From: Octopus vulgaris
Lineage: Eukaryota
Direction of reading: 5' to 3'
Assembly: GCA_951406725.2 (NCBI GenBank)
Contig: OX597836.1
Location: 45,198,001 to 45,262,000, forward strand
Length of the DNA: 64,000 nucleotides
A program made the position numbers. Numbering within the stretch: the first letter of the stretch is position 1; every line of letters begins with the position of its first letter. Shown here piece by piece: positions 1-20,700 of the stretch.

Positions 1-3000
1 CGTAAAATGTAAACTGGCAAAATATATTTATCCTAAATGCGATACAAAATAAGTTTGAGTAATAAATCAATGGTTAGGGTTGCAGGCTCTCATGAGAACT
101 TCCCTTCGGCATTCTAAAATACCTATATCGAAAGAATGGCCTTCCTTGATGTCCGTCTGTTAAATATGTGAAGCTTTTTCGAGTGACAATGAAAACAATT
201 TGCCTGTCCCTTTTTTATAACCTTTCTGATAAAGTCCTTAACCCTTCGTTACCAACCCGGCTAAAACCGACTCTGGCTCTGAGGTCTTGTTATAAGTATT
301 GAATTAAAATCTTCTGCCAAACCTTAGTCACAATCTATGTTCCCAACACTAGCTTAATGATGACGAAGTTCTTTTACTAAATTCTTTGTTATATTTAGAA
401 TTATTTGAAAGAAACGGAGCATCTCAAAATAGAGTAACGAAAGGGTTAAACGATCGCAACATAATTTTCCTGTGCGCACATCCACCCACACACAAACATG
501 TGTGTATATAAAATTATAGTTCCAGTCATTGGGTTGCTGCATGGTAGCACACCACTCTGAAGATTATTAAATTGGACGGAATTCACGGGCCTATTATAGT
601 AGTCGCACGTTGTGACTGTACTAAAAAAACCACATGGTTTCGAAGAGGAGTTTTTAATCACAGCCATACCTGCGCCTTGGGGTCGATGTAATCGACTTAA
701 TCCGTTTGTCTGCCCTTGTTTGTCCCCTCTGTTTAGCCCCTTGTGGGCAATAGAGAAATATATATATGTATGTGTTTGACGATATAGAGTATATGAACTA
801 GGGGCTTTCTTACTCAGTAAAACGTCTGAGCCATTGTATGATTACATGAAATCACAATGGGAGACCGTAGTCCTTGAGAACTTTGCCACTACTGGAACGG
901 CATGGAATTTGTTCGATCAGGGCTGATGTATATCTAACAATTTGTCTATCCTCTGAAGATTTGCAGTACTTAATTATTTGATAAAAGCCAATGTTTTGTA
1001 TAGAAGAGTGATTGGCAGTAAAAATATCCCCAAAATTATTTTAGTTATAAATTATATTATCGTTGTAATAAAATTTGCTTAATATTAATTTACATGAGCA
1101 AGTGATAGTCTTTCCAAAAAATAGTAAATGTTCCCAGAAATGGTTGGAAGTTATAAAAAATGAAATGTCTTGGGTGGAAATGAAGTTATCCTGAAGTGCT
1201 CCATGTAGCAATGTAGGGGAGAGGGTTAATGTGGTACTGGTAGGGGACAAGGAAGAAGCGATCAAAATGTTTTCCAGCAATGTACAATACTTGAGATCCT
1301 GGATCTGTTCTAAAACAATTGACTATGATGACACGTGTTGGATGTGATTGTCTGTGAATTCAATCCCTTGGCTGTCTGAGTCCACTTTATCTCACATTGT
1401 CCCTGTGTTGATAGTGAGGATAAGGGTCCCGTTGACTGTTTTAATCATAATTTGATAATTGCTTTTTTTTTTTTTACTTAGTTCCTGGAAGAATTCAAAC
1501 ATTTTTATTTTTCAATAATGTCCAAGTGTGTGTGTATGGGTTACTTAAGGGCCAGTACTTACATTGTACCTCAGTTGCGGACTTGAGACAATCGTGAGAT
1601 GGATAAACTACTTTTTTAGGCATGGCCTTTTTGAGTTTCAAATCTACCGATGGCTTTATCCCTCGGGGTCGATAATATAGGTACTACTTAAGAAGGGTGG
1701 TCCCGGTGCGCGCATCCGAGCTAGCTAGTCGATCCTACAACGACCACCTAGCAAAATAAATAAAATACAAAATGATTTTTACACAAAGTAAGGATCGACT
1801 AGTCACGACTAGCTTGTGCGACTACGCGAGTGTGCGCCCCGGGACCACTCTTCTTAAGTAGTACCAATTTGTGCAAGTAGGAAAGGAAACCTCTGAAGTT
1901 CCAAATTGACGGCTTAATTTGCGTTTAACACGCATCCGCATATTTTCTCCCTTTTGCGTCTGGACATCTTCATTTGGCAGGATGACCGAAATGTTCTTCG
2001 TGTAGACCAACAATAAACGATTAAAAGGATTATTGTACAGGGAAGAAACATGGCTTTTGTCAAAGAAAGAACGGTGACGAATTGATTTTCTGTTTCTACA
2101 AAGCTGCAGTATCACTTTTCCATTAATAATGTCACCTCTTGTAATAAGGCCACATGATGAATTCACAATTTCCACAGGTGTATTTGTTCATAATTGACGC
2201 CCTGCCAACCATTGAAGGATGTTGTCTCGTGATTCTGCCAAGTGACTGATGATATTCCACAATCCATCTAATATTGCTTTACGACGATTTCAACTAGACT
2301 TTATTATGCAGATTGAGTGTTCAATTTTATTTCTGTGGTAAAGAAATTGAGAGGTGGGCTCATGACTTCAGAAAACGTTCGGGCAATGATGGAATTAAGA
2401 ATATTTGCTATATGAATACTAATGATTACAAATATTTTGCTGAGCCTGACAAAACTTCAAACTTTTCCAGGTTACAAGGGTTTACAGTGCCATTTTGAGC
2501 GATTTCCAAAATGATCACAGAACCAAAGTAAAAGTATCAAAGAACATATTTGGGTTGTGTCCCTTCATTTTCATTTTTTTTTTTACACTTGTGTAAACTG
2601 AACAATTAACAATATATAGACAGAGGGAGGGAGTTTAGATTTAGACAAGATTTATTGTAGATTGGTGGGGTTAGTATGTACAGCAGACCAAATGCAGTTG
2701 TCAAGCACATTAAGGTTTTTGTTTTTCTGTTGAAATACGGAATTTTATGATTAAATTTTCAATTGGAAATCACATTTCCTCATTTGCGTCTCCTGCAGCC
2801 TAAATTCAAGAAAGGAAAAAAGAAGTTGCCACCAGTTCCTACTGTTGCTAGGAAGGTGGAACCAAAGAAAGTGGTCAACCCCCTGTTTGAGAAAAGACCA
2901 AAGAACTTTGGTATTGGTGAGTAAATTCAAAATTTCTCTCTTCATTTTATAATAAAGTCTAGTGTTAGCAGTATTTTATGGAAGAACTTAACCCTTTTGT

Positions 3001-17796: not shown

Positions 17797-20700
17797 CATA
17801 TTTTGGTCAGAAATATGGTAACGAGAGGGTTAACTATAGGATGAGATAGGTGATGTTAAGACTTGGATAATGATGAAGTAAACCTGTCAGATCCCTGCAT
17901 GGTGATAATCTAATCACTACCAACCGAGATCTCTGAGTCCAGTTTTAACTGTATTAGGAATGATGAGCTTTGTTATAGTAACTTAGTAGATATTTTAAAA
18001 GTTTATTGTTAATGTGATACCAACTTACTTGAGATAGCTTCTATATAAATTTTCTGTTTAAAAGCGATATAAATTAAAATTTTTTAAAGTGTTAGTTTAT
18101 ATTCCAAACATTAGCTTAATAATTTCAATAAATTTGTTATTATTTTCTCAAACATTTCACGTGGAAAACACTAACATAACAGAGAGCATGATTTTTAATT
18201 AGCTGATGATGGTAATGATGAAATATATTGGGGGGATTAGATTCACACATTTTCAATGCTACTTTTAATTATTTGAATTACTCCTGTATATAAATCTACA
18301 CACATTAATTGAATTGCTCTTGTATGTACTCCAGTACAGGCTTTTACCATTTTCCTAAATATGGTTGGTGTCGAGTTATTTCCCTTTTAACCAGTTTGAA
18401 TTTGCTCTTATCTGAACCCATAGTTTAAAATTTTGCAAATAAAACAAAGAATGTTTGATCCCTTATAAAAAGTGAGCAAGTACCCCCTCATTACATGTAT
18501 CTTTGGTAATGTAATGTTGGCTAAATCATAGTTGGAATCCCTTTGTTGGTTGGTGCTTTCAACCTGGGTTCACCTTTGGCTACAAACTACAGCCCAACGT
18601 TTCAATTTCATAAAAACATTTACAAAAAAGACATTGTAAAATGAGGTCAACATGGGAATGAATTTACTTTGCAGATGTTGCAAATGATTGAATTATGCAC
18701 CAATTGTCTTGTCAGTAAATCTGTCTCTCTCTCTCCCCCTCTCCTGCGGAGGGGACCAGTCGATTAGATCAGCCCCAGTACGCAACTGGTCCTTAATTTA
18801 TCGACCCCAAAAAGTTGAAAGGCAAAGTCGACCTATATATATATATATATATATACATATATATATGTATATATACACATATATCTCGTTGCTGTCATAT
18901 GTCCCAAATTTGGCCAAATGTTTTTTTTTTTTAAATATTTAATTTTGCTTGGTCAAACTATTGTATCTCCAGCGCTGTTTCAGTTGAAAATTGCCAGTGT
19001 AGTACAACAGTTTAATATTTTTCAAAAGTGTAGTAAGTCCTACATAAGACAGTTTTGCAAAAAATATTTTCTGACTGAAAATATACTCGCATAGTTACGA
19101 TTTTAAGCACCCAGCAAAGTATTTATGAAGGCTGAACCTGTTGCTAATGTAAAAAGAAATGGAACGGTGAAACTATTGTTTCGCTTCCTGAAAATGCAAT
19201 GTTTTGAACTTGTGACACGTTTGCATAATAATGATATACACACACACTAACAGTATTGTAACAGCAGTAAAGGAGTTTGAAGCTATGGATGTAAGCAAAT
19301 TGGACAGTGATGAAGACAATTTATCAGTTACATCTCCATGGTGATATTTTATTTACTACCGAGATCTCTGAGTCCAGTCGTTTGTAATGATTTTTTTTTT
19401 TTTTTTAGGTTCATTTAAATAATTTTGTGTTTTCTTAGAATTAGGGTTTTATTTTGTAAAATGTCCAATGAATAATGGAGAAATAAAGCAAGAACTTGAT
19501 TACTTATACAGGTGGAGTAAGTGATGAGTGGAGGTGAGGAAGGAATTCAGTGAGATTGAGATAATTTGTGTTTCATATACATTGTCATTAACACCTGCCT
19601 TCCATGCTAGCATGGGTGGGACTACATATGTATACACACACACTTATAAATATTTTTTGTCTCCGTTAGCATACTTTGTCAACTCTATTTGTTTATGCCA
19701 TTATTATTAATTCATTTTCTTTACTATTTTTATTATAACTATTGTTAATGTCACCTTCAAAAAACACATTCAGATTTGAATGGTTTTATACACACACACA
19801 AACACACACCTACTCTACCGTTGGTTGAGTCAGTGACTTGTTTACTCCATGGGGGTCAATGAGTATCATAAAGAAATGTCAGAACACCAGATCTGTTAGA
19901 CAGAAGTGTTAAATAGAAACAGTTTCTCAGATACTGAAATCATTGTTGGTTCTTTTGAAATAGTATTTTTTGTGCGCTTGTGCTTGTGCATCGGACAAGT
20001 AATTATATAAAACAAAGTTTGAATAATTCTGGTTTAAATTCCCAGCATACTTTGGCTTCATTTTTACTCTGGGTATTATCAATAGGATCACAGTGATGCT
20101 TGAATTTCTTCAACTGAATTTTTGTAATTTTGAAGACAACTTGACAACTTCTGAGTGATCATTTCTAATTGTGTCCCCTTCCCTGGCATCCCCTGCTTTC
20201 CTTGTGACTTAACCCCTTACCCGGCAGAAACGAATATATGCGTTTTGACCGAAATCGTTTTTTTCTATCTCTGGTGAGTTAACTCGCCAAAATCAACAGC
20301 AAACGAGTTCCTTCGTCTAAAAACGGGTTAACTCGTTTCTGCCCAAAGCGGTAATTTAAAATCAATATTATTGAATTAAAATTAAATAAGGTTTGAAATA
20401 TACCTCGAAATCACCATTCAAAACAGTGAAATAAAACAATTAAAAAATATGTCTGAAAAATTACATTTATTTTCAAAATAATTGTTGGGTAAGGGGTTAA
20501 TTCCAAATCAGATCTTGTCCTTTTATATATCTGTACAATACTTAGTATGATTTAGTATTAAAAGTTTTCAACCCACTTTTCAGCTTGTACTCTTTATGCC
20601 TGCACTGTGTCGTAAAACTGATGTCCCCTATTGCATCGTAAAAGGAAAGGCTCGTCTTGGCAGAGTTGTCAACACAAAGACCTGCTCATGTCTGGCCATC

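What the first reader, a model, noticed from the sequence alone, without database searches (positions are those of the whole stretch)
1321..20160. RPL7A introns form a polycistronic snoRNA array with up to eight snoRNAs in one intron
Seen: about 15 intact-looking snoRNA genes, all on the sense strand. Presumed intron 1 has 2; intron 2 (2917-10540) has 8 plus a pseudogene; intron 3 has 2; intron 4 has 3. Known: vertebrate intronic snoRNAs are normally one per intron, released by debranching and exonucleolytic trimming, and C/D types usually lie about 70-80 nt above the acceptor. Here only the ACA50-like RNA is at that position. Inference: releasing several RNAs from one lariat needs endonucleolytic cutting, recursive splicing or hidden non-coding exons. 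This would be a little-described processing route in a mollusc.
Basis: partly seen in the sequence, partly recalled or inferred. Interest (0 to 1): 0.85.

Follow-up and report, generated by a model that had tools for sequence, protein, structure and literature searches.

The report
Fifteen snoRNAs packed in RPL7A introns
A cephalopod ribosomal-protein gene (RPL7A) carries about fifteen small nucleolar RNA genes in four of its introns, up to eight in one intron; this layout is known from flies and rice, but I found no description of it for molluscs.

Summary
Window 1-23573 (+) holds RPL7A/eL8. Six coding exons run colinear with Argonauta hians RPL7A residues 2-265. The one-codon first exon was not located. 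On the sense strand I find 15 intact-looking snoRNA units, 12 box C/D and 3 H/ACA, plus one truncated copy. Support is uneven. One unit passes Rfam's gathering score (SNORD36). Twelve are sub-threshold hits that keep the family's guide sequence (SNORD24, 53/92, 103, SNORA50). Two rest on boxes, fold and a duplicated block only. No C/D family hit appears among the 150 listed rows for the other 40 kb. The units form about seven sequence families spread by short local duplications (100-440 bp, 93-97% identity). The layout itself is not new: intronic snoRNA gene clusters are described in rice and Drosophila, and two snoRNAs in one intron can give sno-lncRNAs. Processing could not be tested. No recursive-splice motif was found. 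Hidden exons are not excluded. Verdict: a real, ordinary-to-moderately interesting new member of a known kind.

The parts
2799..2916 (+). RPL7A coding exon 2 (residues 2-40; the Met-only exon 1 was not located)
   Evidence: 95% identity to Argonauta RPL7A residues 2-40; borders cag| and |gtgagt
10541..10690 (+). RPL7A exon 3
   Evidence: 98% identity to residues 42-90
17305..17525 (+). RPL7A exon 4
   Evidence: 86% identity to residues 92-164; the hits carry PF01248
20584..20714 (+). RPL7A exon 5
   Evidence: 91% identity to residues 165-207
22111..22180 (+). RPL7A exon 6
   Evidence: 83% identity to residues 209-231
23469..23573 (+). RPL7A last coding exon, including the stop codon
   Evidence: 100% identity to residues 232-265
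1320..1383 (+). SNORD53/92-like C/D unit, copy a (intron 1)
   Evidence: 31.3 bits (gathering 46), E 0.009. Boxes AUGAUGA and CUGA; guide CCUUGGCUGU kept
2381..2447 (+). U24 (SNORD24)-like C/D unit that keeps only the D' guide, copy 1 (intron 1)
   Evidence: SNORD24 30.8 bits (gathering 41). AAUAUUUGCU guide kept (one search shows the alignment of its twin); 6-bp terminal stem
3725..3791 (+). U24-like unit keeping the D' guide, copy 2 (intron 2)
   Evidence: SNORD24 31.1 bits. 94% identical to 2381-2447
5544..5607 (+). SNORD53/92-like unit, copy b (intron 2)
   Evidence: 33.1 bits, E 0.001. Lies in the block 5253-5689, 93.6% identical to 1032-1465
6279..6350 (+). SNORD103-like C/D unit, copy a (intron 2), with a long external stem
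   Evidence: 27.4 bits (gathering 45). D' guide CUUGCCCUC kept. Flank duplex -17.6 kcal/mol; 2% of genomic controls are as low
7004..7135 (+). H/ACA-like unit x1, family unassigned (intron 2)
   Evidence: two hairpins, an ACAUUA hinge and ACA 3 nt from the 3' end, -38.9 kcal/mol; snoU109 23.5 bits (gathering 43)
7337..7393 (+). 5'-truncated SNORD103-like copy (no C box); a likely pseudogene
   Evidence: 93% identity over positions 16-72 of the unit only
8137..8268 (+). H/ACA-like unit x2 (intron 2)
   Evidence: 96% identical to x1, -45.5 kcal/mol. The duplicated block 8135-8281 ends almost at the unit's ends
9253..9324 (+). SNORD103-like unit, copy b (intron 2), with a long external stem
   Evidence: 28.4 bits. 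Inverted repeat 9239-9259 / 9318-9338. Flank duplex energies
9957..10025 (+). SNORD53/92-like unit, diverged copy c (intron 2), with a long external stem
   Evidence: 35 bits, E 0.0003. Only the boxes and the D guide are shared with copies a and b. External stem -13.0 kcal/mol; 0.7% of controls are as low
10338..10467 (+). SNORA50-like H/ACA unit, ending 73 nt before exon 3
   Evidence: 43.4 bits (gathering 90), E 3e-05. Pocket sequences kept in the alignment
11657..11734 (+). U24-like C/D unit that keeps the D guide, copy b1 (intron 3)
   Evidence: snoR160 25.9 bits, SNORD24 21.7 bits. Guide ACCGAGAUCU next to CUGA. Terminal helix of about 13 bp
16765..16842 (+). U24-like unit keeping the D guide, copy b2 (intron 3)
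   Evidence: 96% identical to b1
17864..17941 (+). U24-like unit keeping the D guide, copy b3 (intron 4); identical to b2
   Evidence: 0 differences in 78 nt from b2
19302..19375 (+). U24-like unit keeping the D guide, diverged copy c (intron 4)
   Evidence: SNORD24 31.3 bits (gathering 41). ACUACCGAGAUCUCUGA aligns to the family's D guide
20088..20159 (+). SNORD36 (intron 4)
   Evidence: 37.4 bits, above the gathering score of 30. D' guide GAAUUUCUUCA kept

Best explanation
This is the ribosomal-protein gene RPL7A (eL8) of a cephalopod. It acts as host to intronic snoRNA gene clusters.

About seven kinds of guide RNA sit on the sense strand of introns 1-4. They are two U24 derivatives that each keep one of U24's two guides, plus SNORD36, SNORD53/92-like, SNORD103-like, SNORA50-like and an unassigned H/ACA. 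Short local duplications of 100-440 bp have multiplied them to 15 units.

Shown: the host gene, the units, their boxes, the conserved guide sequences, their strand and their duplication.

Inferred:
1. The units have no promoters of their own and are made from the host pre-mRNA.
2. Each unit is bound by its core proteins wherever it lies in the intron. For some C/D units a long terminal or external stem helps this.
3. The inner units are freed by endonucleolytic cuts in the spacers, followed by 5'-3' and 3'-5' trimming up to the protein-protected ends.
4. Some spacers may persist as snoRNA-ended long RNAs.
For: Host gene: six exons are colinear with Argonauta RPL7A.

Units:
- 26 of 26 snoRNA-family rows in 1-24000 are on the + strand, at 13 loci.
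- The guide elements of SNORD24, 36, 53/92, 103 and SNORA50 are kept in the alignments.
- Two further H/ACA-like units have H and ACA boxes in place.
- The motif scan gives 13 + strand hits in the gene against 0 in the other 40 kb.

Dependence on the host:
- All units are on the sense strand.
- For the SNORD103-like pair, similarity stops 18 nt outside the unit.
- For the H/ACA-x pair, it stops 2 nt upstream and 13 nt downstream of the unit.
- These pairs therefore share no upstream promoter.

Function of the older copies: D53c against D53a/b, and U24c against U24b, share only the boxes, the guide and the terminal stem.

More than one kind per intron: the SNORD103-like, H/ACA-x and SNORA50-like kinds occur only in intron 2 within this window.

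Position-independent assembly:
- None of the 12 C/D units lies 70-80 nt from an acceptor; they lie 351-6749 nt away.
- The flanks of 9 of 12 C/D units pair better than 95% of shuffles.
- 3 of 12 (D103a, D103b, D53c) still stand out against 2000 random genomic pairs when the 6 nt next to the boxes are left out.
- The repeat finder reports the D103b stem on its own.
- PMC5519232 (passages) states that long external stems can make C/D assembly splicing-independent.

Precedent: intronic clusters in rice and Drosophila (PMC2780460 passages; PMC11028025 Introduction).
Against: - No expression, end-mapping or processing data exist here. Every processing step is inferred.
- Only 1 of 15 units reaches an Rfam gathering score.
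- The two H/ACA-x units come from a scan that also hits repeats and the - strand.
- 9 of 12 C/D units do not beat the stricter genomic control for external stems.
- D53a and D53b have no extended stem at all.
- Recent paralogues are no better conserved inside the unit than in the flanks: 7 of 7 comparisons give p>=0.05. Many copies could therefore be young, unexpressed duplicates.
- Two exon-like acceptor/donor pairs (4110-4369, 19409-19516) lie between units.
- Exon 1 was not found, so intron 1 is only presumed.
Confidence: 0.55

Rival explanations
1. Hidden non-coding or poison exons, or stepwise (recursive) splicing, split the long introns. Each snoRNA then sits in its own spliced piece and matures by the ordinary lariat, debranching and trimming route.
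For: A simple scan finds two exon-like acceptor/donor pairs beside the real exons: 4110-4369 in intron 2 and 19409-19516 in intron 4. The second begins at a T-rich acceptor 33 nt after the U24c unit. It has 5 in-frame stops, as a poison exon would.
Against: - 0 recursive-splice motifs (pyrimidine tract, YAG|GT, 3 of 4 RAGT) on the + strand of 1-23600.
- Only 3 of the 14 units scanned have a strong acceptor-like site 20-250 nt downstream, and none lies at 70-80 nt. The two H/ACA-x units were found later and were not in that scan.
- Two extra exons could at most split 2 of the 4 multi-unit introns, and into pieces that still hold several units each.
- The scans are crude. They missed exon 4 and did not flag the real acceptor of exon 3.
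Confidence: 0.15
2. Most copies are silent young duplicates. Only one or two units per intron mature, and the pairs that do bind proteins give snoRNA-ended long RNAs (sno-lncRNAs) rather than free inner snoRNAs.
For: - Paralogues at 93-97% identity show no excess conservation inside the unit.
- One copy is visibly truncated (7337-7393).
- PMC11028025 (passages) describes sno-lncRNAs that arise when two snoRNAs share an intron.
Against: - Three kinds (SNORD103-like, H/ACA-x, SNORA50-like) occur only in intron 2 of this window. If they are used at all, and are not supplied from elsewhere in the genome, that intron must yield at least 3 RNAs.
- The older paralogues keep exactly the boxes and guides, which fits more than one working copy per kind.
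Confidence: 0.2
3. The units are independent genes with their own promoters that merely lie inside RPL7A introns.
For: Some duplicated blocks carry 80-290 bp of upstream flank with the unit: D53a/b, U24a1/2 and U24b1-3.
Against: - All 15 units are on the host's sense strand.
- The SNORD103-like and H/ACA-x pairs share 18 and 2 nt of upstream sequence.
- No motif common to the upstream flanks of the different kinds was seen in the alignments.
Confidence: 0.05
4. The repeated units are an assembly artefact: haplotypes or collapsed reads laid side by side.
For: Several pairs are 93-97% identical.
Against: - The window has no N.
- The duplicated blocks are short (108-438 bp) and lie in unrelated flanks.
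- They fall in different introns and are separated by unique exons.
- Seven distinct kinds would remain even if every duplicate were removed.
Confidence: 0.03

Closest known systems
Intronic snoRNA gene clusters of Drosophila melanogaster and rice (Huang et al. 2004, 2005; Liang et al. 2002). I saw these only as citations and one-sentence descriptions in PMC2780460, PMC2246290 and PMC3089462. The papers themselves are not held.
   Same: Several snoRNA genes sit on the sense strand of a single intron of a host gene, including paralogous copies made by local duplication. Ribosomal-protein genes are frequent hosts.
   Different: The host phylum is different (a cephalopod mollusc). The cluster mixes C/D with H/ACA units in one intron. 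The title of the 2004 fly paper, seen as a citation, concerns H/ACA clusters. The introns here are long (3-7.6 kb) and repeat-rich, with kilobase spacers.
Vertebrate RPL7A as host of SNORD24 and SNORD36. PMC3412847 (passages) places human SNORD24 in intron 2 of RPL7A. The SNORD36A-C hosting is recalled, not read.
   Same: The same host gene and the same two snoRNA families. A U24-like unit lies in intron 2 here too (3725-3791).
   Different: - Vertebrates follow one snoRNA per intron, placed near the branch point.
- Here there are 2-8 per intron, 351-6749 nt from the acceptor.
- U24's two guides are carried by two separate kinds of unit.
- Further families (53/92, 103, A50) that I recall having other hosts in human are in this gene as well.
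sno-lncRNAs (PMC11028025, passages)
   Same: Two or more snoRNAs share one intron. The snoRNPs would block exonucleases from both sides.
   Different: No RNA data exist here. With 8 units in one intron, many alternative end pairs are possible. Whether free inner snoRNAs or capped-by-snoRNP long RNAs accumulate is unknown.
Splicing-independent maturation of intronic snoRNAs: frog oocyte cases cited in PMC11028025, and external-stem-dependent C/D assembly stated in PMC5519232 (passages)
   Same: The units lie far from the branch point. Some have long helices formed by their flanks (D103a/b, D53c, U24b1-3).
   Different: Only 3 of 12 C/D units pass the strict control for an external stem. No cleavage sites or enzymes can be named from sequence.

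Membership tests
RPL7A / eL8 (Pfam PF01248 family) | Colinear protein similarity over the whole length, with canonical splice borders | tested here: met
   six exons, each compared on its own, cover residues 2-265 of Argonauta RPL7A at 83-100% identity. The hits carry PF01248. Exon 1 (Met only) was not located.
Box C/D snoRNA | C box RUGAUGA near the 5' end, D box CUGA near the 3' end, and a terminal stem that brings them together | tested here: met
   10 of 12 units pass a scan allowing at most 1 C-box mismatch and a stem of at least 3 bp. The two SNORD103-like units have a degenerate C box (AUGAGG) and were found by Rfam only.
Box C/D snoRNA | An antisense element next to D or D' that matches an rRNA site | tested here: inconclusive
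   The guides match the Rfam family consensus. No rRNA of this animal was on hand, so pairing to the target was not computed.
Box C/D and H/ACA snoRNA | A stable RNA of defined ends bound by core proteins | not testable with these tools
   No expression data.
Box H/ACA snoRNA | Hairpin, H box ANANNA, hairpin, then ACA 3 nt from the 3' end | tested here: met
   10338-10467, 7004-7135 and 8137-8268 all have this layout. The scan is not specific, since it also gives - strand and repeat hits.
Rfam SNORD36 (RF00049) | Score at or above the curated gathering score | tested here: met
   37.4 bits against a gathering score of 30.
Rfam SNORD24 (RF00069) | Score at or above the gathering score (41), with both guides present | tested here: not met
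   the best scores are 31.3, 31.1, 30.8 and 21.7 bits. Each unit keeps only one of the two guides. I call them U24-like, not members.
Rfam SNORD53_SNORD92 (RF00325), SNORD103 (RF00188), SNORA50 (RF00407) | Score at or above the gathering score (46, 45, 90) | tested here: not met
   31-35, 27-28 and 43.4 bits. The guide or pocket sequences are kept. I call them '-like'.
Intronic snoRNA gene cluster | Two or more snoRNA genes in one intron, on the host's sense strand | tested here: met
   introns 2, 3 and 4 hold 8, 2 and 3 units between exons that are adjacent in the protein. The 2 units upstream of exon 2 depend on an exon 1 that was not located. No ATG|GT lies between positions 1143 and 2798.
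Intronic snoRNA gene cluster | Co-transcription with the host and release from the intron | not testable with these tools
   No RNA data.

The most novel reading that the evidence does not exclude
Cephalopods have given up the 'one snoRNA per intron, near the branch point' rule. Their long, repeat-rich ribosomal-protein introns work as true polycistronic snoRNA precursors. Units defined by long flank-to-flank stems are cut out by an endonuclease independently of splicing, and are copied from intron to intron as stem-bounded modules. The SNORD103-like and H/ACA-x duplications end almost exactly at the unit or at its external stem, as such modules would.
Probability: 0.3. Interest if true: 0.55.

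Novelty: new member of a known kind. Interest (0 to 1): 0.35.

Why it matters
- It extends intronic snoRNA clusters, so far described for flies and plants, to a lophotrochozoan.
- It shows that the RPL7A-U24/U36 host relation seen in vertebrates also holds in a cephalopod. Sponges carry U24 in RPL5 instead (PMC3412847, passages).
- A single intron with five kinds of guide RNA and kilobase spacers is a convenient natural substrate. It could be used to ask how inner snoRNAs are freed, and whether sno-lncRNAs form outside vertebrates.
- It is not a new principle.

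Tried and rejected
- Exon 1. Four ATG|GT sites lie upstream of exon 2, at 70, 541, 634 and 1140. None has a good donor or a convincing pyrimidine-rich start. The one at 1140 lies inside the block duplicated at 5253-5689. Exon 1 is most likely upstream of the window, and I left it open.
- Extra C/D candidates 838-926, 6128-6204 (which holds a T24 run) and 8638-8754 (3-bp stem, 117 nt) come from the loose scan. 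They have no Rfam support and are not counted.
- Partial U24-like match at 55251-55279, and a - strand C/D-like motif at 40760-40837. On reading the sequence, the first has no C box and the second has no family support. Neither is counted.
- miRNA-model hits (mir-297, mir-1277 and others) fall on TA/TAC microsatellites and are taken as chance.
- Selection test inside units against flanks for young paralogues: no signal.
- Recursive-splice motif: none found.
- Comparison with other cephalopod RPL7A loci: not possible.
- Huang 2005 and Liang 2002 are not held.
Supplementary Table S1 of PMC11028025, with per-species counts of intronic clusters, may bear on how unusual 8 per intron is.
Every protein comparison was made exon by exon.
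- I took nothing in the window for human.

Full report
**What is there**

The first 23.6 kb of the window, on the + strand, hold a ribosomal-protein gene. Stop-to-stop frames and the borders read give six coding exons:
- 2799-2916
- 10541-10690
- 17305-17525
- 20584-20714
- 22111-22180
- 23469-23573

All have AG acceptors and GT donors, and together they give 795 nt in frame. The exon 4 peptide finds eL8/RPL7A proteins. The best named one is Argonauta hians at 86% identity. Each exon translated on its own aligns colinearly to that protein, to residues 2-40, 42-90, 92-164, 165-207, 209-231 and 232-265. The animal is therefore a cephalopod, and no coding exon is missing between exons 2 and 7.

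The first exon should carry only the ATG. Four ATG|GT sites lie upstream of exon 2. None is convincing, so the exon may lie outside the window and 'intron 1' stays presumed. No ATG|GT lies between 1143 and 2798, so the start-codon exon does not separate the two units found there.

**The snoRNA units**

At the curated threshold, Rfam reports one match in the whole window: SNORD36 at 20088-20159. At E<=10, the first 24 kb give 44 rows.
- 26 rows are snoRNA families, all on the + strand, at 13 loci.
- 18 rows are miRNA models on microsatellites.

The alignments show that the sub-threshold hits keep the parts that matter.
- The D' guide of U24 is kept in 2381-2447 and 3725-3791.
- The D guide of U24 is kept in 19302-19375 and, less closely, in 11657-11734, 16765-16842 and 17864-17941.
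- The D guide of SNORD53/92 is kept in 1320-1383, 5544-5607 and 9957-10025.
- The D' guide of SNORD103 is kept in 6279-6350 and 9253-9324.
- The pocket sequences of SNORA50 are kept in 10338-10467.

A scan of my own for hairpin, ANANNA, hairpin and ACA found two more units, 7004-7135 and 8137-8268. They are 96% alike and have H and ACA boxes in place. Their only family signal is snoU109 at 23.5 bits. A 5'-truncated SNORD103-like copy lies at 7337-7393.

**Is it more than chance?**

- A loose C/D motif scan gives 13 + strand hits in the first 24 kb. It gives none in the remaining 40 kb, and six on the - strand in all 64 kb.
- Ten of the 13 are the Rfam loci. Three have no other support and are not counted.
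- The other 40 kb give no C/D family among the 150 rows shown of 183.
- The H/ACA scan is weaker evidence. It also hits about five - strand loci and two further + strand loci, several of them in interspersed repeats.
- The two new H/ACA units are therefore supported mainly by the duplicated block (7002-7148 and 8135-8281), which ends almost exactly at the unit's ends.

**How the array arose**

Self-comparison shows short duplicated blocks around the units.

| Block 1 | Block 2 | Identity |
|---|---|---|
| 1032-1465 | 5253-5689 | 93.6% |
| 2303-2498 | 3647-3842 | 95.9% |
| 6261-6368 | 9235-9342 | 97.2% |
| 7002-7148 | 8135-8281 | 95.9% |
| 11546-11856 | 16652-16968 | 93% |
| 11592-11811 | 17799-18019 | 96.8% |

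Copies of one kind lie in different introns, so whole exon-intron units were not duplicated. Older copies (D53c against D53a/b, U24c against U24b) share only the boxes, the guide and the terminal stem, which is the pattern expected of working paralogues. Young copies are no better conserved inside the unit than in their flanks, so sequence cannot say which of them are used.

Within this window, the SNORD103-like, H/ACA-x and SNORA50-like kinds occur only in intron 2. If they are used and are not supplied from elsewhere in the genome, that intron must give at least three different RNAs.

**Processing**

Nothing here can show how the RNAs are made; what follows is inference. Only the SNORA50-like unit ends 73 nt before an acceptor. 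The C/D units end 351-6749 nt before the next coding-exon acceptor.

The literature read here gives the frame.
- Animals mostly follow one snoRNA per intron, with debranching and exonucleolytic trimming.
- Intronic clusters nevertheless exist as a category.
- Two snoRNAs in one intron can shield the spacer and give sno-lncRNAs.
- Some frog and human intronic snoRNAs are made without splicing (all four points: PMC11028025, Introduction read whole, other sections as passages).
- Long external stems can make C/D assembly independent of splicing (PMC5519232, passages).

I therefore tested for such stems.
- The 25-nt flanks of 9 of 12 C/D units pair better than 95% of shuffles. This includes the terminal stem that helped to define the units.
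- Leaving out the six nucleotides next to the boxes, and comparing with 2000 random genomic pairs, 3 of 12 stand out: D103a, D103b and D53c.
- The D103b stem is also reported by the repeat finder.
- The SNORD103-like duplicated block is exactly the unit plus this stem.

Tests of the splice-based rivals were crude.
- No recursive-splice motif was found.
- 3 of the 14 units scanned have a strong acceptor-like site within 250 nt downstream. The H/ACA-x pair was not yet known at that point.
- Two exon-like pairs exist beside two of the three real exons in range. One of them, 19409-19516, has five in-frame stops.

**Verdict**

The arrangement does call for something beyond end-trimming of one lariat, but the arrangement is a known kind, and the routes proposed are known or at least discussed elsewhere.

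My searches found nothing on snoRNA organisation in cephalopods or other molluscs. The giant squid genome paper gives only a count of loci. This is therefore a new member of a known kind.

It comes with two modest points of interest. RPL7A hosts U24- and U36-type guides here as in vertebrates (PMC3412847, passages, for human U24). The units with external stems look like self-contained modules.

**What stayed unchecked**

- The primary fly and rice papers: not held.
- Supplementary tables: closed.
- rRNA pairing of the guides: no rRNA sequence of this animal was on hand.

Noticed in passing
window 13056-16085: A 178-bp satellite, 17.0 copies at 99% matches, fills half of RPL7A intron 3 between two U24-like units. 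It also explains the strong negative GC skew there.
   Followed up: partly
window 234-450, 2988-3213, 7895-8119, 21007-21224: Four copies (81-88% identity, both orientations) of a repeat of about 220 bp. Its ends read as inverted repeats (ttaacccttcgttac ... gtaacgaaagggttaa), so it looks like a MITE. A similar end motif lies about 40 nt upstream of the U24b units, so the snoRNA duplications may be tied to this element.
   Followed up: partly
window 1677-1868: A foldback with 38-nt arms, 89% complementary and 116 nt apart, lies between the two units of intron 1. It would form a long double-stranded hairpin in the pre-mRNA.
   Followed up: no
window 4349-4734, 9562-9902, 17560-17776, 22961-23099: A second interspersed repeat family (78-95% identity, both orientations) sits in introns 2, 4 and 6. 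It folds well enough to give false H/ACA-like hits.
   Followed up: no
window 2381-2447 / 3725-3791 versus 11657-11734, 16765-16842, 17864-17941, 19302-19375: The two guides that one U24 RNA carries in vertebrates are carried here by two different kinds of unit, one keeping the D' guide and the other the D guide. PMC3412847 (passages) reports sponge U24 with only one conserved guide.
   Followed up: partly
window 19409-19516: An exon-like segment of 108 nt has a T-rich acceptor 33 nt after the U24c unit and a GTRAGT donor. It has five in-frame stops. It is a possible poison exon or a chance match.
   Followed up: partly
window 1032-1465 and 5253-5689: The largest duplicated block (438 bp, 93.6%) carries about 290 bp upstream of the SNORD53/92-like unit. 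This includes a CTTTCC...ATG|GT stretch at 1140, one of the weak candidates for exon 1.
   Followed up: partly
window 40760-40837 (- strand): A C-box/D-box motif with an 8-bp AT-rich terminal stem lies outside RPL7A. It has no Rfam support among the rows shown.
   Followed up: partly
window 24001-64000: Many TA/TAC microsatellites give dozens of sub-threshold hits to miRNA models such as mir-297 and mir-1277 on both strands. I take them as low-complexity artefacts. The genes of this part of the window were not examined.
   Followed up: no
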